From: a virus | Taxonomy: Duplodnaviria > Caudoviricetes | IMG/VR virus record: IMGVR_UViG_3300006143_000333 | Span: 64,959-128,958 of that record | Reading direction: 5' to 3' (one strand) | Length of the DNA stretch: 64,000 nucleotides | The notes under the pieces: generated by a model | Told to the model about the DNA's origin: nothing | The model's input: the letters and a program-made list of their open reading frames with translations, nothing else | Database searches by the model: none | Program-made: the position numbers and the translations under genes | Shown: positions 46,687-58,401 of the stretch, in pieces | Layout of the letters: every line of letters starts with the position of its first letter | How positions within the stretch are numbered: position 1 is the stretch's first letter

Positions 46687-47331
46687 ATGAGAATTATTGA
46701 ACCAAGTTATGAGATTTTAACAGAGATTTCCGAAGGTGGAATCAAGGAATTACAGCACATTGAGAAGATAGCAAGAGTATGCTACAAAAGTGAGAATTTG
46801 ATTACAGAAGATGGAGAATCAGCAAAAAAGATGGTTAAAATGCTTATCGACAGAGGGCATGAGGCAATGATTGAGCATTCTTCATTATCTGTTAAGTTTA
46901 CAGTGGATCGTGGTGTGTCACATGAATTGGTGAGACATAGAATTGCTTCGTTTGCGCAGGAGAGTACAAGATATTGTAATTATTCAAAGGATAAGTTTGA
47001 TAATGGTATTACATTTATTAAGCCGTTTTTCTTTAAAGAAGGGACAACAGAATATGAAGAATGGGAAGATGCTATGGATAATGCGGAGCAGTCTTATTTA
47101 TTCTTAATTAATGAATGTGGTGCGACACCGCAAGAAGCACGTTCTGTATTGCCTAACAGTACCAAGACAGAGATTACAATTACGGCAAATTATCGTGAAT
47201 GGCGCAACTTCTTTAAGCTGAGAACCGCAAAGGCAGCGCATCCATCTATGCAAGAAATTACAAGACCCTTATTGAAAGAATTAAAGACAAAACTACCTAT
47301 TATTTTTGATGACATTGAAGTAGAGGAGTGA
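46687..47331 (+). CDS. thyX: flavin-dependent thymidylate synthase
   Basis: HELVRHRIASFAQESTRY, ARSVLP. Confidence 0.95.
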   Translation: MRIIEPSYEILTEISEGGIKELQHIEKIARVCYKSENLITEDGESAKKMVKMLIDRGHEAMIEHSSLSVKFTVDRGVSHELVRHRIASFAQESTRYCNYSKDKFDNGITFIKPFFFKEGTTEYEEWEDAMDNAEQSYLFLINECGATPQEARSVLPNSTKTEITITANYREWRNFFKLRTAKAAHPSMQEITRPLLKELKTKLPIIFDDIEVEE

Positions 47332-47338
47332 TTATTTA

Positions 47339-47842
47339 ATTAGTAGAAGAAAGAATAAATATATCGAACTTGAAAACGAATATCTAATAGAATTGTATTT
47401 TCCAAATAGTAATGAAATTGAAGACTATGCTCATATTTCTAAGATTGACTATGAGAAATGTAAAGAAGTGTACTGGAAGAAAAGTGAGTATGGATATGCT
47501 CGTGGATATTTTAATAAAAGAGCAGTATTGCTACACAAATTTATTACTAATACAGACGATACAATTCTAATAGATCACATAAATAGAAATAAATTGAATT
47601 GTACAAGGAATAATCTAAGATTTGCAGATAAAAGTATAAACAGCTTAAATAGAGATTTACAATCAAATTCAACTACTGGCTATAAAGGAGTTTCTTTAGA
47701 TAAAAGAAGAAATAAATATAGAGCCTATTTAAAGAAAAATGGTAAACAAATATGGTTGGGCTATCATGATACATTAGAGGAAGCTGTGCTTGCTAGGCAA
47801 AATGGATTTGAAAAAATATATGGTAAAGATATTTATATTTGA
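47339..47842 (+). CDS. HNH-AP2 homing endonuclease, probable ATT start
   Basis: LHKFI..IDHINRNKLNCTRNNLR, then GYKGV..YRAY..LGY...EAVLAR. Confidence 0.85.
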   Translation: MSRRKNKYIELENEYLIELYFPNSNEIEDYAHISKIDYEKCKEVYWKKSEYGYARGYFNKRAVLLHKFITNTDDTILIDHINRNKLNCTRNNLRFADKSINSLNRDLQSNSTTGYKGVSLDKRRNKYRAYLKKNGKQIWLGYHDTLEEAVLARQNGFEKIYGKDIYI

Positions 47843-47863: not shown

Positions 47864-48430
47864 ATGATTATTGTTTTACTAGGGGCTTCCGGATCAGGGA
47901 AGTCCACAATTGAAAATGAATTAGCAACACATCATGGCTTTGAAAAGATTATTTCGTACACTACGAGACAGCCTAGAACTGGCGAAGAAAATGGAAAAAA
48001 CTATTATTTTACAGAAAATAATACATTTGCCGCCATGATAAACACAGATGTTTTGGCAGAATATGACGAATATTCACAAGGAAGATTATATGGAACTTTG
48101 AAATCTGACTATGCAGACGGCAATAAAGTAGTTGTACTTACACCAAACGGACTCAGACAGCTTAAACAAAATTGTCCAAATGACAACATTTTTACTGTAC
48201 TTGTAAACGCAAGTCTTGGTACAAGAGTAAAAAGATACATAGACAGATGTGGCGTTAATGAATTTACTTTTGATGATAAGAATGAAATTGCTGCGAGAGT
48301 TGAGAGAGATTTTTCGATGTTTTTAAGATTAGAAAGAGAAGTAAATCTTGTAGTTAATAACAATGAAGGAACAGATATTAATGATGTTGTGAAAGAAATT
48401 TTAGAAACAGAAAGGATGTATAACGTATGA
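47864..48430 (+). CDS. guanylate kinase-like protein
   Basis: GASGSGKST, SYTTRQPRTGE. Confidence 0.85.
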   Translation: MIIVLLGASGSGKSTIENELATHHGFEKIISYTTRQPRTGEENGKNYYFTENNTFAAMINTDVLAEYDEYSQGRLYGTLKSDYADGNKVVVLTPNGLRQLKQNCPNDNIFTVLVNASLGTRVKRYIDRCGVNEFTFDDKNEIAARVERDFSMFLRLEREVNLVVNNNEGTDINDVVKEILETERMYNV

Positions 48431-49923: not shown

Positions 49924-50171
49924 GAAATTGTGTAAAAGTTAAAGTAAATAGTATCGAAAGCGCAAAAGAATTTTCAAGAATCTGTGAAAGATTTGAAGAA
50001 GATATTGATTATATAGTTGGAAGATATACCATTGATGCAAAATCTATACTTGGTATTTTATCTACAACACTTGGCAAAATTGCAGAAGTCAAAATTTGTT
50101 CTAAAGATTTGAAAACGATAGAATTATTTTTTAATTCAATAAATTCTTGGATTGTGGAGGAAACTATATGA
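49920..50171 (+). CDS. short HPr-like protein (no His15)
   Basis: IDAKSILG Ser46 motif; no His in the protein. Confidence 0.75.
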   Translation: MRNCVKVKVNSIESAKEFSRICERFEEDIDYIVGRYTIDAKSILGILSTTLGKIAEVKICSKDLKTIELFFNSINSWIVEETI

Positions 50172-50407
50172 AAATCAAATTAAACACAATTAATGACATA
50201 TCAAGTTTTACGACAGCATGTGGCAACTATTATGAAGGAGAAATTGATATTAAACAAGGACGACAGATTATCGATGGGAAAAGTATCTTAGGAATATATA
50301 GTCTTAATTTGTTGAAACCTTTAGATGTGTCTATTAATGCTAATAATAAAGATGTTGAACAAAATTTTTATAATTTTATAAAAAAATGGTACACAGATGA
50401 AGAATAA
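50168..50407 (+). CDS. short HPr-like protein (no His15)
   Basis: IDGKSILGIYSL; no His in the protein. Confidence 0.75.
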   Translation: MKIKLNTINDISSFTTACGNYYEGEIDIKQGRQIIDGKSILGIYSLNLLKPLDVSINANNKDVEQNFYNFIKKWYTDEE

Positions 50408-50558
50408 TAATATAATGATTAATTTTAAAAGATGAAAACAGGGGTGAAGATATGAAGATTCATTTATTTGAAGGAATATTTGAGGTTGACTGGAAAGCAG
50501 TAGTAGGTATTGGAATTATAATTTTAGGATACGCCTTGTTAACTATATGAGGAGGGAT

Positions 50559-51098
50559 TTGTTGAATACAATAGTAATAAACTTATTTGGAGAGCCAGGA
50601 GTAGGTAAAAGTACAGCGGCCATGGATATCACAGCAAGATTAAAAAGAAAAGGCATAAATGCAGAATATGTTTCTGAATTTGCAAAAGATAAGGTATATG
50701 AAAACAACGGAGAAGTATTTAAGCATCAGGAATATTTATTTGGTAAACAATCATTTAAGATGGGCAGAGTAAGAGATAAGGTTCAAGTAATGGTGGTAGA
50801 TTCTCCGTTGCTCCTATGTATTGTTTATAACAATGACAAAACACTTGGAAAAGATTTCAACAAGACGGTTCGTGATGTATTTAATTCATATACTAACAGA
50901 AATTATCTACTTACAAGAAACCATATATACGAAGATGAAGGAAGATTTCAAAATGAAGAAGAAGCATTGGAAGTTAGAAAACAGATTATAATGGCATTAG
51001 ATAGTATGAATATTACTTATAATTTTGCTACATCTAGCGAATTAGATTGTGAGATTATAGCAAATAAAATTGCGGAGGAAATTAGAAAAAATGAATAG
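50559..51098 (+). CDS. NadR/AAA_28-like P-loop kinase
   Basis: GEPGVGKST, EYVSEFAK, VDSPL, GRFQ. Confidence 0.75.
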   Translation: MLNTIVINLFGEPGVGKSTAAMDITARLKRKGINAEYVSEFAKDKVYENNGEVFKHQEYLFGKQSFKMGRVRDKVQVMVVDSPLLLCIVYNNDKTLGKDFNKTVRDVFNSYTNRNYLLTRNHIYEDEGRFQNEEEALEVRKQIIMALDSMNITYNFATSSELDCEIIANKIAEEIRKNE

Positions 51099-51252
51099 TA
51101 AGGGACATTTGTTTATTAGTCTTGGTAAATCAGCTATTAGGATTATTGGTGGAATTGCTGCTTTGGCTAAGAAGTCAGTTGTGCCATTGGCAATCGGCAC
51201 TATTGTAGCTGAGATTGGCGGCGTGTTGGAAGAATTAGTTGATGAAAGATAA
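51091..51252 (+). CDS. small hypothetical membrane protein
   Basis: KSAIRI...AEIGGVLEELV. Confidence 0.6.
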   Translation: MNSKGHLFISLGKSAIRIIGGIAALAKKSVVPLAIGTIVAEIGGVLEELVDER

Positions 51253-51274
51253 TTGATGACGGAGGATGTAGTTA

Positions 51275-53482
51275 TTGACAGTACAAAAAAGAGATGGACG
51301 CAAGGTTAAATTTGATAAAGAAAAAATCAAGATAGCTGTGTTAAAAGCATTTATTGATATAGATGGGGAAGAAACTGCTTATGCGAAAGAAAAAGCCAGA
51401 GATATTGCCAATTACATAGAATATCTAAATAGGAGTATGACTGTAGAGGAGATTCAGGATCAGGTAGAAGAAAGACTGATGGCAAGTAATCGAAAAGATG
51501 TGGCAAGAAAATATATTATATATAGAAACGAGAGGAATAAAATTCGAAAATCTAAAACATATGCAGTATTTAACAGCATAGTTAATACTGAGTCTAATGA
51601 TGTTACAAAAGAAAATGCAAATATGAATGCTGAAACACCTGCTGGCATGATGATGAAGTTTGCAAGTGAGACAACAAAAGCATATACAGATGATGAATTA
51701 ATTAGTGATGAAGCAAGAGAAGCAGTTGATAATAATTATATCCATATACATGATAAAGATTATTATCCAACCAAGTCATTAACTTGCCTACAGCATCCTC
51801 TTGATAGAATCTTAAATAATGGTTTTAGGGCAGGACATGGTTCAAGTAGACCAGCAAAAAGAATTGAGACAGCTTCAATTATTGGTTGCATCAGCATGGA
51901 GACGGTACAAAACGAGATGCATGGAGGACAAGCAATTCCAGCATTTGATTATTATTTGGCACCATATGTAAGAAAAACATACATTGAAGAAGTAGAGAAA
52001 CTCATTGAGTTTACTGGCATTGATTACACCTACCTCTTTGATGAAGAAATTGAAGATTATGTAAAAAGACCATTAAAAACATTGACAGGTAGAGACAGAG
52101 TAAAACAACAAGCAATTAATAAAACTGTATCAAGAGTTCATCAGTCTATGGAGGCATTTATTCATAATATGAATACAATACACAGCCGTGGTGGAAATCA
52201 GGTTGTATTCAGCTCAATAAATTATGGTACAGATACAAGTGCGGAAGGTAGATGCATTATCCGAGAGATTCTTAACTCTACATATAACGGAGTGGGTAAT
52301 GGAGAAACACCAATTTTTCCTATTCAAATTTGGAAACTAAAAAAAGGTTTAAGTGCAGAAAAAGGTGATAGAAATTATGATTTATTGGAACTTGCTTGCA
52401 AAGTAACAGCAAGACGATTTTTCCCCAATTTTATTAATTTAGATGCTCCTTTCAATGTAAATAATCTATGGAATGAGAATGACTCCGAAAGATATAAATA
52501 TGAATGCGCAACAATGGGCTGCAGAACGAGAGTGTTTGAAAATAGACATGGGGAAAAATCATCTATTGGAAGAGGGAATTTATCTTTTACGACAATTAAT
52601 ATTGTCAAACTTGCGTTAGAGTGTATGGATATTGAAAATGATGAAAAAAGAATCAATACTTTTTATAAAAAATTAGATAAATACACAGATATAGCAGTAA
52701 GACAGTTATATGACAGATATTGTTTCCAAAAAACAGCTCTTAAATCACAATTCCCATTATTAATGGCTGGGTTATGGAACTATTCTGAAAAGTTACAGAA
52801 AAGTGATAGAGTAGGAGATTTATTAAAACAAGGAACATTAGGAGTGGGATTTATTGGACTTGCTGAATGCTTAATTGCATTAACAGGCAAACATCATGGA
52901 GAATCTGAAGAATCACAGAAATTAGGTGTTGAAATTATTACTCATCTTAGAGATAGAGTAAAGATGTGGGCTGATGAATACGACTTGAATTATTCTGTAT
53001 TGGCTACACCAGCAGAAGGTTTATCTGGGAGATTCACTAAGAAAGACAGAAAAGATTTTGGTGTAGTTGAACATATTACAGATAAAGATTACTATACCAA
53101 TTCTAATCATATCCCTGTGTGGTATCACTGCACGATTAAACATAAAGCTGAAGTTGAATCTCCATATCATGAATTAACTCTCGGAGGGCATATCTTCTAT
53201 GTAGAATTGGATGGTGATGCAACGCACAATCCAGAAGCAGTTATGCAGGTAGTTAAAATTATTCGCGATAATAATATTGGATATGGTTCCATTAATCATT
53301 TGAGAAATCGCTGTCTTGATTGTGGTTGGGAAAGTGCTATAAGAGACTTAAAGCAATGTTTGGAGTGTGGAAGCGAAAATATAGACACTATTGAAAGAAT
53401 TACTGGCTATTTAGTTGGAGCAATAAATAGTTGGAATAATGCAAAATTAGCAGAACTTAATGATAGAGTTTGTCATAATTGA
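51275..53482 (+). CDS. nrdD: class III anaerobic ribonucleotide reductase with ATP cone
   Basis: QKRDG ATP cone, TMGCRT, TPAEG, YYTNS, RITGYL glycyl-radical loop. Confidence 0.95.
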   Translation: MTVQKRDGRKVKFDKEKIKIAVLKAFIDIDGEETAYAKEKARDIANYIEYLNRSMTVEEIQDQVEERLMASNRKDVARKYIIYRNERNKIRKSKTYAVFNSIVNTESNDVTKENANMNAETPAGMMMKFASETTKAYTDDELISDEAREAVDNNYIHIHDKDYYPTKSLTCLQHPLDRILNNGFRAGHGSSRPAKRIETASIIGCISMETVQNEMHGGQAIPAFDYYLAPYVRKTYIEEVEKLIEFTGIDYTYLFDEEIEDYVKRPLKTLTGRDRVKQQAINKTVSRVHQSMEAFIHNMNTIHSRGGNQVVFSSINYGTDTSAEGRCIIREILNSTYNGVGNGETPIFPIQIWKLKKGLSAEKGDRNYDLLELACKVTARRFFPNFINLDAPFNVNNLWNENDSERYKYECATMGCRTRVFENRHGEKSSIGRGNLSFTTINIVKLALECMDIENDEKRINTFYKKLDKYTDIAVRQLYDRYCFQKTALKSQFPLLMAGLWNYSEKLQKSDRVGDLLKQGTLGVGFIGLAECLIALTGKHHGESEESQKLGVEIITHLRDRVKMWADEYDLNYSVLATPAEGLSGRFTKKDRKDFGVVEHITDKDYYTNSNHIPVWYHCTIKHKAEVESPYHELTLGGHIFYVELDGDATHNPEAVMQVVKIIRDNNIGYGSINHLRNRCLDCGWESAIRDLKQCLECGSENIDTIERITGYLVGAINSWNNAKLAELNDRVCHN

Positions 53483-53499
53483 AACGGAGGTACTGATAT

Positions 53500-55518
53500 A
53501 TAGATAATATTAAATGTATATTATCGGATTCTGTTGATGTAAAACTTGGAAGCAAGAATATGAAATACTATAAAGAACTTGGTTACAATGGTAATTTTGG
53601 AGATGTCATTCATGTAAAAGTGGATGACATCAAACCAACATCACATGTCAAAATTAATACAGAATGTCCGATGTGTAAAAAGGAACATAGAATTCAATAT
53701 TGTGATTATTATAAACAACAACATACGCTGTGTAATTCTTGTGCTACAACATATTTTAACACTAAAAATAATGTTTGTATCTATTGTGGTAAAAAGGCTA
53801 CTAAAATATTTGATGGTCATTATTATTGTAGTAAACATATTGAACATATGAAAAAATATGGAAAGTGTTTAGCAACTACTTGTTGTGATTTGAATGAAAT
53901 TTCATATGAGAATGATTATGCCATACTACATGTTAGAGGTTCTGATCAAATTGATATAGCATTAGTTAAAATTGATTTGAATGCAGTTGATTATGTAAAG
54001 CATATCCATTGGCTATATAGCAAGACAGACGGATTTATTGTATCAAAAGATAATATCAAATTACATAGGTATTTATATCGAAATTTGATTGGCGATATAG
54101 AATGCAATTATATTTTGTTTAAAAATAATGATATGTATGATATGAGATGTAAAAACTTGATACAATCTAATGAAAAAACTTTCAGATTATTTTCAGATGA
54201 TAATACTGATATAGATGGGATATTTATAAAGGATAATTTACAAGTTGGAATTATAGACGACACTCATTATAAATTATTAAATATACGAGATTTAAAAGAT
54301 ATTGAAAGTAACAGAAAACCCATTATTGTTGAGGTTGGCGAAAATGGATGCTGGAATTGTATAAGTCATAGTCAACATCCAGATGGTTATGTTTATGTAT
54401 ACTCTGGAAAGAAAAAGATAAAACTCCATAAACGTGTTCTTGAAATAAAATTAGGAAGAGAACTAAAAATTAATAATGACGAACTAACGAGACATATGTG
54501 TGACAATCCGCAATGTTGCAATCCAGATCATTTAATTATAGGAAATTCACAAGAAAATCATGACGACATGGTTTTGCGTGGAAGAGGATATTGGCAAAAT
54601 CATACGGGATACTTTAAATGGTATGAACGAGAAGGTAGTAAGCAAAAAAAACAACCCAAACCATTATTAACAGAAGAAATAATTATTAATATTTATAAGG
54701 ATGCATTACAAAATTGCATTCCTTATAGGCAATTAGATAAAAAATATGGAGTTGGGAGGGGAGTTTCTTCAAATATTGCAAATAAAAAGACTTATAAAAA
54801 TATCACTGAAAATATTGATGTCATAGATAATAGACACATATTAGATAATACAAGAAAAGAAGATTATATTATGGTTAAGAATCTTAAAGATGGTAATTTA
54901 TATACCAATAGAGAAATTGCAGATTTAACGGGGATAAATAGAGAAACTGTTAGAAATATCGTTAATGATACATGGACATATTCATCCAAAGATATTGAAA
55001 ATTATATTGATAAATTTGTTGGCGATGGATCTGGTGTTATCTATTATATGGATATTAAATACGACACTATTGTAGATGGTGTTGGTTTCAGAAACACAGT
55101 ATATTGTGCAAAATGTGACATCTTATGCAAAGGATGTCATAATCCACAAAGTCACAATATAAAAAATGGAAGACCTAGTTCTGTTAATAATTTAGCAAAA
55201 TTATTACTTGGAAATGGTAATGATATTACTTTCTCAGGAGGGGAATGCAGTTTACAAGCAAAAGCGTTTATTAAATTAGCACAAATGTTAAAAAACGAAA
55301 ATAAAAATATCTGGTTATATTCAGGACATACATATGAAGAATTAATTGGCGACTCTGTTACAAGTAAATTACTAAATTTAGTGGATGTTCTGGTAGATGG
55401 TAGATTTGAAAATGATCTTAGAAATACTGATTTACTTTTTAAAGGATCTTCTAATCAAAGGATTATTGATTTAAATGAGACTAGAAAGGTTGGAGAGGTT
55501 GTTTTATGGAGAAGATAA
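53500..55518 (+). CDS. nrdG: HNH endonuclease-NrdG fusion, probable ATA start
   Basis: HMCDNPQCCNPDHL HNH motif; C-terminal DGVGFR, CDILCKGCHN, FSGGE, LVDGRF, GSSNQ. Confidence 0.85.
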   Translation: MDNIKCILSDSVDVKLGSKNMKYYKELGYNGNFGDVIHVKVDDIKPTSHVKINTECPMCKKEHRIQYCDYYKQQHTLCNSCATTYFNTKNNVCIYCGKKATKIFDGHYYCSKHIEHMKKYGKCLATTCCDLNEISYENDYAILHVRGSDQIDIALVKIDLNAVDYVKHIHWLYSKTDGFIVSKDNIKLHRYLYRNLIGDIECNYILFKNNDMYDMRCKNLIQSNEKTFRLFSDDNTDIDGIFIKDNLQVGIIDDTHYKLLNIRDLKDIESNRKPIIVEVGENGCWNCISHSQHPDGYVYVYSGKKKIKLHKRVLEIKLGRELKINNDELTRHMCDNPQCCNPDHLIIGNSQENHDDMVLRGRGYWQNHTGYFKWYEREGSKQKKQPKPLLTEEIIINIYKDALQNCIPYRQLDKKYGVGRGVSSNIANKKTYKNITENIDVIDNRHILDNTRKEDYIMVKNLKDGNLYTNREIADLTGINRETVRNIVNDTWTYSSKDIENYIDKFVGDGSGVIYYMDIKYDTIVDGVGFRNTVYCAKCDILCKGCHNPQSHNIKNGRPSSVNNLAKLLLGNGNDITFSGGECSLQAKAFIKLAQMLKNENKNIWLYSGHTYEELIGDSVTSKLLNLVDVLVDGRFENDLRNTDLLFKGSSNQRIIDLNETRKVGEVVLWRR

Positions 55519-55877
55519 TTATAAATGATTACATACGAGGGGAACCATTAGCAGAAGAAAATCTTGACGATGTATTAGATCTAGTCAATAAAATCCGTCT
55601 TTCAATGCCACAGAAATCTATATGGCTTTATACAGGATATGCATGGGAACATATATTTGACGAAAAATGGCATTATCATCCACAAACCATGGAAAAATTA
55701 TCTATAAATAGATGGAAACGACAGCAAATAGTTTCTGAGTGCAATGTATTAATAGATGGAAGATATTTAGATAATCAAAAAGATATTACACTCAAATGGC
55801 GTGGTAGTAATAATCAAAAAGTTATTGATATTCAAAAATCAATACAGCAAGGAGAAATTGTATTATGGTGCAATTAA
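55506..55877 (+). pseudogene. orphan 3' half of a second nrdG
   Basis: GEPL, IWLYTGY, LIDGRY, WRGSNNQ but no CxxxCxxC. Confidence 0.8.
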
Positions 55878-56140
55878 AGAAAGAAGACCGATTATACTAT
55901 GCGCGCATTATTCCTAAAACAAGAATTTATGAAGTTTGTGAAGTGATTGTTAGAACAGTAAAGGATACATGGTTCGTTACTGTAGATAAGAGAGATAAAC
56001 GTGCATATCTCTTTAATAAGAGCGATTTTAATAAGATTGTATTTGAAGATAGGAACGTTGCCTTGTCAAAGGTTAAAGAAGCCGAGGAGAATGATATATC
56101 AAGAACTAAAAATGAAGAATTGTATTATGAAGAATATTAA
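55865..56140 (+). CDS. hypothetical protein
   Basis: RBS aaggag. Confidence 0.7.
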   Translation: MVQLKKEDRLYYARIIPKTRIYEVCEVIVRTVKDTWFVTVDKRDKRAYLFNKSDFNKIVFEDRNVALSKVKEAEENDISRTKNEELYYEEY

Positions 56141-56200
56141 AGCCGAGATAATATAAAACATGAGTATACATTAATAAAAAAGAAAAAGGTGGTGAATTGA

Positions 56201-56551
56201 ATGAAGAGGTTGACAAATGAACAAGGTGAACTTATATCATGCACAGATTGTTCAGATAATGATTGTTATATTTGTGTGAATGTTATTTGTGCGTTAGAAA
56301 AATTAAAGCATTATGAAGATTTAGAATCGCAATTAGAGAAAGTCTGCGGCGAAGAACTTGAAGAATCTGTGGAATATGGAAGGGTAAGTCTCGATAATTC
56401 CAACAATTCAAATGGTGCTAGAGTATATTTGACACATGAAGAAACGAAAATAGTTATATCTGTACTTGAAGAAATTCAAAAATATAGAAAAATTGGAACG
56501 ATTAAGGAATGCGAAGAAGCAAGAGATAAGCAGAGGTCAAAAATTGGATAA
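56201..56551 (+). CDS. hypothetical protein
   Basis: MKRLT...LKHYEDLE...YRKIGT pattern. Confidence 0.7.
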   Translation: MKRLTNEQGELISCTDCSDNDCYICVNVICALEKLKHYEDLESQLEKVCGEELEESVEYGRVSLDNSNNSNGARVYLTHEETKIVISVLEEIQKYRKIGTIKECEEARDKQRSKIG

Positions 56552-56725
56552 TTGGATGAAGTAAGAAATAATCTGTTTAGCAGCAAACATAAAACACTTC
56601 TATATGAGTTTAAATAATAAAATTTACAAGAGTGCTACATGCTGATAGACTTCATCATCGAAATTGCAGGCTCGATGATACAACGGTTTGTTCTATTGGA
56701 AGAAAAAATCTGGGAGTGATGAAAT

Positions 56726-57367
56726 ATAGCAAATTATTTAATATCGCACTATAAAGGCAAATACCGTATAAAATGTGAATATGATAAGACTTTAAACCAG
56801 TTCCCAAGAAAATTAGATGGAACATATGAAGATATAGATTGTTATATAGATTGTTATAATAATATAAAGATATTTTACTTTGGTAAATCAACTTTAGAAG
56901 CATATATCCCATCAAAAGGCAGAGGACATAATATAATAAAGGCGATAGAGGACGAACTGGGAAAAGGAATTATATATAATAAGGAAGAAAACGATTCAGA
57001 AGTACTTTTTCATTTTAAAGCAAAAGATATGCACAAGTTAGAAAAATATTTGAAACCTAAGACAAGTGGTTCAAATATAAGCCCATTTAGTTCAAAGAAT
57101 TTACCTAAAAATAAGTTCTATAAAATACCAGATGAAGATTTGATAAATTATAAAAATATTGTTGAAAATATAGAACAAAATCAGATAATAGTATTAAGTC
57201 ATATAACAAATTCATATTTGAAAACTTTAGTAATGAAAAATAATACTTGGGAGGATATTAAAGCTGATATGGCACTGAAGGGACTATCTGGAAAGAACTA
57301 TATTCATTCACTAGGAAAATGGAAAAATTACATTGAATATTTGGAAAAGATGATAAATAAAGTATGA
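56726..57367 (+). CDS. hypothetical protein, ATA start
   Basis: SD gggagtg; 101 extra stop-free codons upstream of the track ATG. Confidence 0.7.
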   Translation: MANYLISHYKGKYRIKCEYDKTLNQFPRKLDGTYEDIDCYIDCYNNIKIFYFGKSTLEAYIPSKGRGHNIIKAIEDELGKGIIYNKEENDSEVLFHFKAKDMHKLEKYLKPKTSGSNISPFSSKNLPKNKFYKIPDEDLINYKNIVENIEQNQIIVLSHITNSYLKTLVMKNNTWEDIKADMALKGLSGKNYIHSLGKWKNYIEYLEKMINKV

Positions 57368-57534
57368 AAATGATTATTACGAGTGAATGTGAAAATTGCA
57401 TTCACTCAAAATTAGACGAATCTGATAAAGCAAAAATTAAAATATATTGTGCTATTAAAAATAAGACATACTATTTTGGACAATGTGTGCCATGTGAATA
57501 TAAAGAGGAAATAAAAAGCAAGGATGATTTTTAA
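57364..57534 (+). CDS. 56-aa Cys-rich protein
   Basis: ATGA overlap; CENC..C..C.PC. Confidence 0.55.
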   Translation: MKMIITSECENCIHSKLDESDKAKIKIYCAIKNKTYYFGQCVPCEYKEEIKSKDDF

Positions 57535-57536
57535 AT

Positions 57537-57884
57537 ATGGAACAATTGAAATTACACAAGGAACTTGATAATAAAAAACTTATTAAATATGGGTTTAAGA
57601 AGAGAAAATATAAAGGAAATATTAATTATATTCTGTCAATTCCATTATATGAGTATAAGGATATATCAGTTATAGAAGCACACTTTATTGTATTTCAGCC
57701 AGAACAACATATTAGATATGATGTTATCAATTCAAGTTCAGATACTTTATATGTGCCGTTTTATGATAGAAAATTTTCTAATCCAAATAAAAATATTGTA
57801 TTAAAAGAAGTAAGGGAAAAATTAAATAAAGAATTACAGTTTATGAAAAAATCTAAAATTATTTCAAAATTTCTGGAGGTATAA
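57537..57884 (+). CDS. hypothetical protein
   Basis: Open ORF. Confidence 0.65.
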   Translation: MEQLKLHKELDNKKLIKYGFKKRKYKGNINYILSIPLYEYKDISVIEAHFIVFQPEQHIRYDVINSSSDTLYVPFYDRKFSNPNKNIVLKEVREKLNKELQFMKKSKIISKFLEV

Positions 57885-57885
57885 G

Positions 57886-58401
57886 ATGAGGAAAGTTGCT
57901 AAGTTTGAAAAGGTAAGTTTAGAACAATTTAAAAATGATTGGATTAGTACATTTGGGGAAAAGTCAGAGCAGATTGTTACGGAAATATACAATAATATAA
58001 AATTACCTAAAAGAGCAACTATAGGGTCTGCGGGATATGATTTCTTTTCACCTATAAATTTTATATTACGCCCTGAAAGTTCGATTAAAATTCCTACAGG
58101 AATTAGATGTGAAATGGAATATGGATGGGTACTCAAATGTTATCCAAGGAGTGGACTAGGATTTAAATATCGTATGCAGCTTGATAACACAGTGGGAATT
58201 GTAGACAGTGATTACCAATATTCAGATAATGAAGGACATATATTCCTGAAGGTTTCTAATGACACAAATGATGAAAAAACAATTACTATTAATCGTGGTG
58301 ACGGTATTGCCCAAGGAATTTTTATTGAATATGGAATTACATACGATGATGAAGTTTATGATATTAGAAATGGCGGATTTGGAAGTACAACAGGAAAGTA
58401 G
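57886..58401 (+). CDS. dut: trimeric dUTPase
   Basis: SAGYD, PRSG, GIVDSDY, IAQ, RNGGFGST. Confidence 0.93.
   Translation: MRKVAKFEKVSLEQFKNDWISTFGEKSEQIVTEIYNNIKLPKRATIGSAGYDFFSPINFILRPESSIKIPTGIRCEMEYGWVLKCYPRSGLGFKYRMQLDNTVGIVDSDYQYSDNEGHIFLKVSNDTNDEKTITINRGDGIAQGIFIEYGITYDDEVYDIRNGGFGSTTGK

What the first reader, a model, noticed from the sequence alone, without database searches (positions are those of the whole stretch)
53500..55877. Homing endonuclease fused to a complete NrdG, leaving the old nrdG 3' half behind
Seen: one ORF contains a Zn-ribbon, a degenerate HNH, an intact HNH, HTH-like segments and then a full NrdG (from ~55040, CDILCKGC). Directly downstream is a divergent NrdG C-terminal half lacking the Fe-S motif. 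No intein-like ends are evident. Inference: an endonuclease destroyed the resident nrdG and made itself indispensable by carrying a replacement in frame, a splicing-free homing strategy distinct from the mobE-split nrdA of phage Aeh1.
Basis: partly seen in the sequence, partly recalled or inferred. Interest (0 to 1): 0.72.

Follow-up and report, generated by a model that had tools for sequence, protein, structure and literature searches.

The report
Homing endonuclease fused to phage NrdG
In a large mouse-gut phage, a selfish DNA-cutting enzyme gene has become one continuous gene with the activator (NrdG) of the phage's anaerobic ribonucleotide reductase. The tail end of the older nrdG gene that this module displaced still lies just downstream, a gene-replacement trick so far described mainly in fungal mitochondria.

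Summary
Window 53560-55518 is one uninterrupted 652-codon frame holding zinc ribbons, an intact HNH_3 nuclease motif, helix-turn-helix segments and a complete NrdG (TIGR02491 above its cut-off). ORF 55506-55877 is only the C-terminal ~60% of a different NrdG and has no Fe-S motif. I found no intron or intein.

The fusion is not an error. Contigs from two studies carry it without indels, and 24 protein clusters at 97-40% identity keep both halves and all catalytic residues. A distant relative has the same nuclease as a separate gene, with a single TAA before nrdG.

- The fusion is older than the remnant. A 42%-identical relative has the fusion and no remnant.
- The imported block also contains most of nrdD.
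- The remnant junction, inside the first Gly codon of GGEP, is the same in three loci. The remnant bodies match different full-length nrdG alleles and switch at one 68-base block.

Cleavage, dependence of NrdG on the fusion, and the exact role of the nuclease in the exchanges are inferred, not shown. An internal start for NrdG is not excluded.

This is a new variant of a known kind. An earlier first-stage note of this scan describes an in-frame HNH-NrdG reading in another genome.

The parts
51275..53482 (+). nrdD (735 aa), chimeric. The ATP-cone 5' end is of the backbone (L088-like) type and the catalytic core is of the phiCD211-like type.
   Evidence: Pfam NRDD 639 bits plus ATP-cone. blastn: 51257-51526 is 82.6% identical to L088 and 51479-53469 is 71% identical to phiCD211.
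53497..53559 (+). In-frame upstream stretch, homologous to the longer N-terminus of family members (..IDNIKCILSD.VD..LGSKN). It is cut off by TGA at 53494-53496 and has no canonical start. A GGAGG lies at 53486-53490.
   Evidence: Sequence compared with the N-termini of P0002-P0009 and P0017-P0024 in alignment A2.
53560..55518 (+). The 652-aa fusion ORF: N-module, HNH_3 nuclease, HTH region and NrdG.
53560..54294 (+). N-terminal module (aa 1-245): two Cys4 zinc ribbons (aa 36-90) and an HNH_3-like segment without the catalytic His (aa ~150-206).
   Evidence: DZR_2 E 7e-4. Free-standing homologues P0198 and P0210. Self-comparison not significant.
54295..54600 (+). Intact HNH_3 / His-Me finger nuclease core (aa ~246-347). 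R311, H312, C314, D315, N316, P317, C319, C320, N321, P322, H324, L325, N333, D336 and M337 are invariant in 26 family members.
   Evidence: Foldseek gives weak matches to I-PpoI and I-HmuI, prob 0.89-0.97.
54670..55026 (+). Helical / HTH DNA-binding region (aa ~371-489).
   Evidence: HTH_23/17/29 weak matches. Helices 372-485 in the AF2 model. NRETVRNI is invariant.
55027..55518 (+). Complete NrdG domain (NrdG*), phiCD211-like lineage.
   Evidence: TIGR02491 131.7 bits, above the cut-off. 51% identical to phiCD211 NrdG. Foldseek PFL-AE 3cb8, E 3e-5.
55048..55050 (+). Internal in-frame ATG (M497) at the start of the NrdG domain; a possible secondary start.
   Evidence: SD duplex energy -5.3 kcal/mol, against a gene median of -8.15 and -3.6 for the ORF's own start. 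Met is absent at this position in P0020 and P0023-25.
55490..55496 (+). GGAGAGG Shine-Dalgarno for the remnant ORF, lying inside the last codons of NrdG*.
   Evidence: -9.2 kcal/mol; sequence.
55506..55877 (+). Remnant: the 3' ~60% of a displaced resident nrdG, with 11 new N-terminal codons. No Fe-S motif.
55519..55536 (+). 18 bases after the NrdG* stop with no homology to resident nrdG; probably the donor's 3' flank. The junction lies at 55536/55537.
   Evidence: Homology to the L088 full-length nrdG starts at GAGGGGAACCA, inside the first Gly codon of GGEP. L086 and L089 have the identical junction.
55537..55604 (+). 68-base block in two haplotypes. Every comparison switches partner at its 3' end. 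It ends in TAAAA-TCCGTC-TTTCA (55589-55604).
   Evidence: Window/L086 96% and L089/L088 99% inside the block; 20-77% after it. Strain contigs diverge at 55604/55605. Pattern match.
55865..57367 (+). Three small ORFs of unknown function. They are absent between the remnant and the Zn-finger gene in L086 and L088, and are replaced by other DNA in L089.
57364..57534 (+). Small Cys-rich gene. It serves as a synteny anchor: it directly follows nrdG in the uninvaded relative L088 and follows the remnant in L086.

Best explanation
An HNH_3 (His-Me finger) homing-endonuclease gene occupies the slot between nrdD and nrdG, the same slot as mobC/segH in T-even phages. In this phage lineage it has lost its stop codon, so the nuclease is always made with a complete NrdG activase as its C-terminal domain. 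The fusion is old and maintained.

Later, a block made of the nrdD core plus nuclease::NrdG, from a phiCD211-like phage, replaced the matching part of an L088-like phage. The left crossover lies at the end of the nrdD ATP-cone. The right end was joined without homology inside the first Gly codon of the resident nrdG's GGEP motif, 18 bases after the incoming stop codon. This left the resident 3' part as a 123-codon ORF with a fortuitous SD and ATG.

The cassette with this fixed junction has since been recombined with many different resident nrdG alleles, using the first 68 bases of the remnant as its right-hand homology.

What is shown: the anatomy, the conservation, the two lineages, the common junction and the mosaicism.

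What is inferred: that the nuclease makes the break (predicted target: resident-type nrdG around the GGEP codons), that NrdG activity comes mainly from the fusion protein, and that the remnant protein has no function.
For: The fusion is real and conserved:
- 24 clusters of 629-692 aa carry both Fer4_12 and HNH_3, at 97-40% identity.
- All nuclease and radical-SAM motifs are invariant in these clusters.
- Further HNH_3-NrdG architectures of 297-461 aa exist.
- DNA contigs of two studies carry the frame without indels, and a contig from an RNA library bridges the junction.
- Differences between strains in the nuclease part are 9 synonymous to 7 non-synonymous.

The ancestral state is visible. 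L087 has nrdD, then a 252-aa HNH gene ending in TAA, then nrdG in the same frame with its own AGGAAG and TTG. phiCD211 has nrdD overlapping nrdG and no nuclease.

The fusion occurs without a remnant in L006.

There are two NrdG lineages:
- Fused NrdGs form one clade. Half-length ORFs are interleaved with full-length NrdGs in another clade (support 0.98).
- Half P0076 is 92% identical to full-length P0126 but only 67% to the nearest other half. Half P0035 is 94% identical to full-length P0053.

An uninvaded locus exists in L088: nrdD, a 196-aa nrdG, and the same downstream gene.

Other points:
- NrdD is a chimera.
- The junction is identical in the window, L086 and the Eubacterium plexicaudatum ASF492 locus L089.
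- All comparisons switch partner at the end of the 68-base block.
- Two cassette-end types are joined to the same resident allele (P0039 and P0035 against P0053).
- Nuclease-deleted but in-frame derivatives exist (P0148, P0152).
Against: - There are no cleavage data and no target site has been demonstrated.
- The internal ATG M497 is conserved in the close clade (19 of 26 members, plus a neighbouring Met in 2). Its SD (-5.3 kcal/mol) is weak but stronger than that of the ORF's own start (-3.6), so free NrdG may also be made.
- The mosaic boundary coincides with a TRAAA-N6-TTTYA palindrome of a kind that other agents of this scan link to cassette exchange in this same phage. Gene-boundary mosaicism is general in this phage group, so nuclease-driven homing is not needed to explain the exchanges.
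- The genomic context of most half-NrdG clusters could not be checked.
- The half ORFs show no more damage at conserved NrdG positions than full-length relatives (1.96 against 1.71 deviations). They are therefore either young or constrained.
Confidence: 0.68

Rival explanations
1. The anatomy is the same, but the nuclease plays no part in the exchanges. The module replacement and the later mosaicism of the remnant come from ordinary homologous recombination limited to the conserved 68-base block. Alternatively they come from the phage's own site-specific cassette system acting at TAAAA-TCCGTC-TTTCA (55589-55604).
For: - An exact TRAAA-N6-TTTYA match lies at the boundary. The window has 15 such sites against 3.4 expected.
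- The same 6-base centre, TCCGTC, is present in L086, L088 and L089.
- Four sequences and two strain contigs all switch within about 9 bases.
- Upstream neighbours of nrdD also differ between relatives exactly at the gene start.
- Notes of other agents on this genome are leads only.
Against: - About 3 such matches are expected by chance. This one lies inside a coding sequence, whereas the others are intergenic and followed by an RBS.
- L088 and L089 have a mismatch in the left arm.
- A boundary at the end of the only highly similar stretch is also what homology-limited crossover after a double-strand break would give.
- The catalytic residues of the nuclease are invariant down to 40% identity, which argues that it is still in use.
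Confidence: 0.22
2. There are two products. The long frame yields the nuclease (with an NrdG tail), while functional NrdG is made mainly from the internal ATG at 55048. The fusion is then a tolerated read-through and not an 'addiction'.
For: - M497 sits exactly at the NrdG N-terminus and is conserved in P0001-P0019.
- Its SD is weak but better than that of the main start.
- L087 shows that a separately started nrdG works in this slot.
- 215-aa ORFs starting at M438 are called in ASF492 and in P0156.
- An earlier first-stage note on another genome (e1-5642398) describes an nrdG that keeps its own RBS and ATG.
Against: - No Met is present at the junction in P0020 and P0023-25.
- There is no GGAGG-type SD, whereas most genes here have one (median -8.15 kcal/mol).
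- No stop codon separates the two parts in any of about 25 diverged clusters, although one mutation would create one.
- Two nuclease-deleted derivatives remain in frame with NrdG.
Confidence: 0.3
3. The 123-aa half-NrdG is a functional protein, for example a partner or regulator of NrdD or NrdG, and is kept by selection rather than being a scar.
For: - Dozens of clusters of 116-135 aa at 55-100% identity have intact frames.
- It has a strong SD and an ATG.
- Conserved NrdG C-terminal motifs are retained as well as in full-length relatives.
Against: - It lacks the Fe-S and most SAM-binding parts.
- The halves do not form a clade; each sits next to a different full-length allele.
- One junction class has lost the GEP motif (NDPL).
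- It is absent from the distant fusion locus L006.
- A protein database shows only open frames, so broken copies are invisible. Shorter fragments of 84-111 aa do occur.
Confidence: 0.12
4. Assembly or sequencing artefact: a missed stop or frameshift between the nuclease and nrdG.
For: The ASF492 draft (L089) shows four 1-base deletions in nrdD and in the nuclease part.
Against: - All four deletions lie in A-runs and so look like homopolymer errors.
- Independent contigs from two studies and 24 protein clusters from ENA/Logan have the open frame.
Confidence: 0.02

Closest known systems
T4 mobC (HNH) and segH (GIY-YIG): free-standing homing endonuclease genes between nrdD and nrdG of T-even phages (Edgell, Gibb & Belfort 2010, PMC2988022, which cites Sandegren et al. 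2005)
   Same: - The same slot, in the anaerobic RNR operon.
- A promoter-less, weakly translated nuclease gene that overlaps or abuts nrdD.
- nrdD/nrdG are recognised targets of mob and seg nucleases.
   Different: - mobC is a separate gene with its own stop. Here the nuclease reads into nrdG and is conserved in that form.
- It has an extra zinc-ribbon / HNH-like N-module.
- A displaced nrdG 3' part lies downstream.
- The nuclease subfamily is different (HNH_3, CDNPxCCNP type), as is the host group (Lachnospiraceae / Clostridia phages).
mobE-split nrdA of Aeromonas phage Aeh1 (Friedrich et al. 2007, cited in PMC3653736; Crona et al. 2011, PMC3045599)
   Same: A free-standing HNH nuclease inside an RNR gene without an intron or intein; RNR function is kept.
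   Different: In Aeh1 the host gene is cut in two and the two pieces reassemble as proteins. Here the host gene is not split: a whole replacement copy is fused to the nuclease, and the old copy's 5' part is gone.
Mobile endonuclease ORFs (mORFs) of fungal mitochondria that bring a foreign C-terminal gene part and leave the native C*-terminus downstream (Allomyces macrogynus atp6; Glomus atp6, atp9, cox2, nad3; Beaudet et al. 2013, PMC3630166)
   Same: [quoted passage not shown]
- A foreign copy of the host-gene sequence travels with it.
- The native 3' end remains as a diverged duplicate.
- The native piece groups with close relatives and the inserted piece groups elsewhere.
   Different: - The order is reversed here (nuclease first, then the whole gene), and an entire gene rather than a C-terminal part is supplied.
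- The imported block also includes the partner gene nrdD.
- The setting is a phage, and the nuclease is HNH rather than LAGLIDADG or GIY-YIG.
NrdG, class III RNR activase (TIGR02491; fold of PFL-AE, PDB 3cb8)
   Same: Full-length match above the curated cut-off, the C-x3-C-x2-C and GGE motifs, the fold, and a position next to nrdD.
   Different: It carries a 495-residue N-terminal nuclease extension.

Membership tests
NrdG (anaerobic RNR activase, TIGR02491), fused copy | Full-length match above the curated cut-off | tested here: met
   131.7 bits against 126.1, profile positions 2-153 of 154, aa 496-638.
NrdG (anaerobic RNR activase, TIGR02491), fused copy | Radical-SAM C-x3-C-x2-C cluster motif and GGE SAM motif | tested here: met
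   C519, C523, C526 and G560-G561-E are invariant in 26 sequences.
NrdG (anaerobic RNR activase, TIGR02491), fused copy | Encoded next to nrdD | tested here: met
   nrdD at 51275-53482, 78 bases upstream. The same holds in L006, L087 and L089.
NrdG (anaerobic RNR activase, TIGR02491), fused copy | Generates the glycyl radical on NrdD | not testable with these tools
   Needs an enzyme assay with the fusion protein.
NrdG, downstream 123-aa ORF | Fe-S cluster motif / full-length match | tested here: not met
   Only profile positions ~61/74-154, 88.5 bits, below the cut-off; no Cys motif.
HNH_3 / His-Me finger nuclease | beta-beta-alpha-metal core with catalytic His, Asn and a Cys-rich zinc loop | tested here: met
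   The motif R-H-x-C-D-N-P-x-C-C-N-P-x-H-L...N..D-M is invariant. PHROG HNH families match at E 1e-15 to 1e-18. Pfam HNH_3 and zf-His_Me matches are below the gathering score. Structural matches to I-PpoI and I-HmuI are weak.
Homing endonuclease gene (functional class) | Presence/absence polymorphism at one site among related genomes | tested here: met
   Absent in phiCD211 and L088, free-standing in L087, fused in the window, L006, L086 and L089.
Homing endonuclease gene (functional class) | Flanking sequence exchanged together with the gene (co-conversion / mosaic flanks) | tested here: inconclusive
   Sharp mosaic boundaries are seen at ~51500 and 55604, but they can also arise without the nuclease.
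Homing endonuclease gene (functional class) | Site-specific cleavage of the allele that lacks it | not testable with these tools
   Needs a cleavage assay on L088-type and phiCD211-type nrdD-nrdG DNA.
Intein | Hint domain with splice-junction residues flanking the nuclease inside the host protein | tested here: not met
   No Hint/intein family appears in the Pfam scan. The nuclease is N-terminal to the whole NrdG, not inside it.
Group I / II intron with an endonuclease ORF | Ribozyme structure around the ORF | tested here: not met
   No Rfam match at E<=1 in 50000-58000.

The most novel reading that the evidence does not exclude
The in-frame fusion is a persistence device. Because NrdG can be translated only through the nuclease frame, frameshifts and stops in the selfish gene are purged, which slows the usual decay of homing endonucleases. 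The remnant's conserved 68-base GGEP block then serves as both the nuclease's half-site and its right homology arm, letting a whole RNR module (nrdD core plus activase) drive itself through phage populations by overwriting non-cognate RNR genes.
Probability: 0.3. Interest if true: 0.78.

Novelty: new variant of a known kind. Interest (0 to 1): 0.6.

Why it matters
Free-standing homing endonucleases are thought to survive only by constant re-invasion, because nothing protects their own frame from decay. A conserved translational fusion to a needed enzyme would be a different way to stay, one that can be tested with a single stop-codon or start-codon mutant.

The locus also accounts for a widespread set of ~120-aa 'radical SAM / hypothetical' ORFs in gut metagenomes and in a cultured Lachnospiraceae genome (ASF492). 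They are scars of one cassette junction, which is useful for annotation.

It also shows a whole reductase-activase pair being exchanged between phages as one unit.

Tried and rejected
The genomic context of most fused and half-NrdG clusters could therefore not be fetched, and the association of halves with fusions rests on the window, L086, L089 and strain contigs.
- IMG/VR held only one other fusion locus (L006) and one relative of the half (L088). The JGI metagenome scan gave two short contigs.
- An Rfam scan for introns found nothing.
- GenBank phages have no close relative of the nuclease part, only generic HNH_3 genes at about 30% identity.
- Self-comparison of the two HNH-like segments by BLASTP (E 20) and hhalign (probability 5%) was not significant.
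- Counting deviations at conserved NrdG positions did not separate halves from full-length relatives.
- dN/dS on the remnant was not possible, because too few DNA sequences were available and the divergence is saturated.
- The pattern TRAAA-N6-TTTYA with one mismatch is at background level (63 matches against 55 expected), so it gave no extra sites near the locus.
- The frameshifts in the ASF492 copy were set aside as probable homopolymer errors.
- Literature searches for an HNH-NrdG fusion found none. PMC1275590 is not held.
- RNA-library contigs cover the region, but contigs cannot show transcript ends or exclude DNA carry-over.
Full report
WHAT IS THERE

The window is the right half of a 128,958-base IMG/VR virus record. 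Its nearest named relatives are the ~130-kb Clostridioides phages of the phiCD211 group, about 70% identical in nrdD. A 93.7%-identical copy of the locus lies in the genome of Eubacterium plexicaudatum ASF492, a mouse-gut Lachnospiraceae. The DNA occurs in mouse-gut metagenomes of several studies.

The gene order on the + strand is:
- nrdD, 51275-53482
- a 652-codon ORF, 53560-55518
- a 123-codon ORF, 55506-55877, which overlaps the end of the long ORF by 13 bases

The long ORF contains the following:
- zinc ribbons, aa 35-91
- an HNH_3 / zf-His_Me nuclease core, aa ~257-340, with PHROG HNH families at E 1e-15 to 1e-18
- weak HTH matches, aa 439-470
- a complete NrdG, aa 496-638: TIGR02491 at 131.7 bits (cut-off 126.1), profile positions 2-153 of 154, with the C-x3-C-x2-C and GGE motifs

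An AlphaFold model built on 26 sequences has mean pLDDT 82. Its C-terminal domain matches pyruvate formate-lyase activase (3cb8, E 3e-5), and the nuclease core matches I-PpoI and I-HmuI weakly.

The short ORF matches only the last ~60% of NrdG and is 29% identical to the fused copy. There is no Rfam match and so no group I intron, and no intein domain. The observation therefore stands.

One detail is weak: the 'degenerate HNH' at aa ~150-206. It is not significantly similar to the intact core. However, free-standing homologues of this N-module keep an H-I-N...D-x-R..N-L pattern, so the reading is plausible.

IS THE FUSION REAL?

DNA contigs from two different studies span 53300-56100 with 0 and 1 substitutions and no indel. 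One of them may be the source of the window. A 791-base contig from a metatranscriptome library bridges the nuclease/NrdG junction without a gap.

More important is conservation. A search of 5.8 billion proteins found 24 clusters of 629-692 aa carrying both domains, at 97% down to 40% identity. In their alignment the nuclease motif (R-H-x-C-D-N-P-x-C-C-N-P-x-H-L...N..D-M) and the radical-SAM motifs are invariant, and no member has a stop between the parts.

At the 50% clustering level, other HNH_3-NrdG architectures appear at 297-461 aa, one of them with an AP2 domain. Differences between strains in the nuclease part are 9 synonymous to 7 non-synonymous, which points to moderate purifying selection.

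HOW DID IT ARISE?

- phiCD211 has nrdD overlapping a 165-aa nrdG and no nuclease.
- Contig L087 (33% identity) has nrdD, then a 252-aa free-standing HNH gene that overlaps the nrdD end and stops at TAA. nrdG follows in the same frame with its own AGGAAG and TTG.
- L006 (42% identity) has nrdD followed by a 440-aa HNH-NrdG fusion with nothing NrdG-like after it.

The nuclease is therefore a resident of the nrdD/nrdG slot, as mobC and segH are in T-even phages (PMC2988022). The fusion is a stop-codon loss that predates the remnant and does not depend on it.

WHAT IS THE DOWNSTREAM HALF?

Its closest relatives are full-length NrdGs of 173-214 aa at up to 80% identity. A related phage contig, L088, shows the uninvaded arrangement: nrdD, a 196-aa nrdG, and then the same small Cys-rich gene that lies at window 57364-57534.

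Homology between the window and L088 nrdG begins at GAGGGGAACCA (55537), inside the first Gly codon of the GGEP motif and 18 bases after the stop of the fused gene. L086 (a 95% relative) and the ASF492 locus have exactly the same junction.

In a tree of the shared C-terminal region the fused NrdGs form one clade next to the phiCD211 type. All half-length ORFs fall in a separate clade (support 0.98), where they are interleaved with full-length NrdGs.

NrdD is itself chimeric.
- Residues 1-60 are 88% identical to the L088 type and 38% to the phiCD211 type.
- Residues 91-735 are 25-34% identical to L088 and 65-78% to phiCD211 (DNA).

The imported block is therefore probably the nrdD core plus nuclease::NrdG: a reductase together with its own activase. 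The resident reductase core and the 5' 240 bases of its activase were lost. That the two breakpoints stem from one event is an inference.

SPREAD

Half-NrdG ORFs of 116-135 aa are common: dozens of clusters at 55-100% identity. They share the new N-terminus (M-E-K-I-I-I-N-D-Y-I-R-G-E-P-L, or a second type with ..I-N-D-Y-I-E-N-D-P-L). Their bodies, however, match different full-length alleles. For example, P0076 is 92% identical to full-length P0126 but 67% to the nearest other half, and P0035 is 94% identical to P0053. The two junction types are found on the same body.

At the DNA level the first 68 bases after the junction come in two haplotypes. Inside this block the window and L086 are 96% identical, and L089 and the full-length L088 are 99% identical. 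Directly after ...CCGTCTTTCA every pair drops to 20-77%. Strain contigs in two RNA libraries diverge at 55604/55605.

One cassette junction has thus been combined again and again with different resident alleles, always switching at the end of this block.

MECHANISM: SHOWN AND INFERRED

The anatomy, the conservation, the two lineages, the fixed junction and the mosaicism are shown.

I infer that a double-strand break in the resident nrdG near the GGEP codons was repaired from a donor carrying the module. Homology on the left lay in the nrdD ATP-cone, and the join on the right was non-homologous. Later transfers then used the 68-base block as the right arm. This predicts that the nuclease cuts resident-type nrdG at or next to the junction, and that the cassette-bearing allele is immune because the left half-site is replaced.

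The catalytic residues are invariant at 40% identity, which suggests the nuclease is in use. Derivatives with the nuclease deleted in frame (P0148, P0152) fit the usual decay phase of such elements.

CAVEATS AND RIVALS

1. The boundary at 55589-55604 is an exact TRAAA-N6-TTTYA palindrome. The window has 15 of these against 3.4 expected, and other agents of this scan connect them with cassette exchange in this same phage (used as a lead only). This copy lies inside a coding sequence, unlike the others, and about three matches are expected by chance. Still, site-specific or plain homologous recombination could explain the mosaic without the nuclease.
2. NrdG may also be made on its own. An ATG (M497) sits at the domain start in the close clade. 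Its SD is -5.3 kcal/mol, weak against the gene median of -8.15 but better than the -3.6 of the ORF's own start. Distant members lack this Met.
3. The remnant has a strong SD (-9.2) and an ATG, so it is probably translated. It shows no more damage than full-length kin. I read this as youth and repeated renewal rather than function, but function is not excluded.
4. The ASF492 copy has four 1-base deletions, all in A-runs. I treat these as sequencing errors.

COMPARISON AND NOVELTY

- The slot and the type of element are those of T4 mobC/segH.
- The 'no splicing' solution differs from the Aeh1 mobE case, where nrdA is split in two.
- The closest parallel is the fungal mitochondrial mORF hybrids, in which an in-phase endonuclease ORF brings foreign host-gene sequence and the native C-terminus remains downstream (PMC3630166).
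- I found no paper describing an HNH-NrdG fusion or this scar family.
- A first-stage note of this scan reports an in-frame HNH-NrdG reading in another genome (e1-5642398).

I rate this a new variant of a known kind, of moderate to good interest. The main open and testable point is whether translational fusion to a needed enzyme protects a selfish nuclease gene from decay.

Noticed in passing
window 47393-47842 (+): A second, free-standing HNH_3 + AP2-type endonuclease gene (149 aa) lies between thyX (46687-47331) and a nucleotide kinase (47864-48430). The nucleotide-metabolism cluster therefore holds at least two nuclease genes.
   Followed up: partly
window 55589-55604: An exact TAAAA-TCCGTC-TTTCA palindrome lies inside the nrdG remnant, exactly where all related sequences switch partner. 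The same 6-base centre is present in L086, L088 (inside an intact nrdG) and L089.
   Followed up: partly
window 53486-53559: A GGAGG directly follows the nrdD stop. An in-frame stretch homologous to the longer N-terminus of family members is cut off by TGA at 53494 and has no canonical start. This copy seems to have lost about 20 N-terminal codons and its good RBS.
   Followed up: partly
window 55865-57367; L089 8313-10750: The DNA between the remnant and the small Cys-rich gene is a variable spot. The window has three unknown ORFs, L086 and L088 have nothing, and ASF492 has 2.4 kb of other genes, including a GIY-YIG-like 138-aa ORF (L089 9223-9639).
   Followed up: no
L089 (AQFT02000004.1, Eubacterium plexicaudatum ASF492): The cultured-strain copy of the locus has four single-A deletions in homopolymer runs (two in nrdD, two in the nuclease part). 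They split the genes into pieces annotated as hypothetical proteins (C823_007711 and C823_007712) and are probably draft-sequence errors.
   Followed up: partly
proteins P0148 (297 aa), P0152 (305 aa): These relatives have lost both HNH-like domains by internal deletion, yet the zinc-ribbon start or HTH region still reads in frame into NrdG.
   Followed up: partly
L087 1060-1254: The nrdG that follows the free-standing HNH gene has an apparent 1-base frameshift just before the Cys motif. The contig is a low-coverage metagenome contig.
   Followed up: no
window 51275-51530: The first ~60-85 codons of nrdD (the ATP-cone) are of a different lineage from the rest of the gene. This marks a recombination joint at a domain boundary.
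   Followed up: yes
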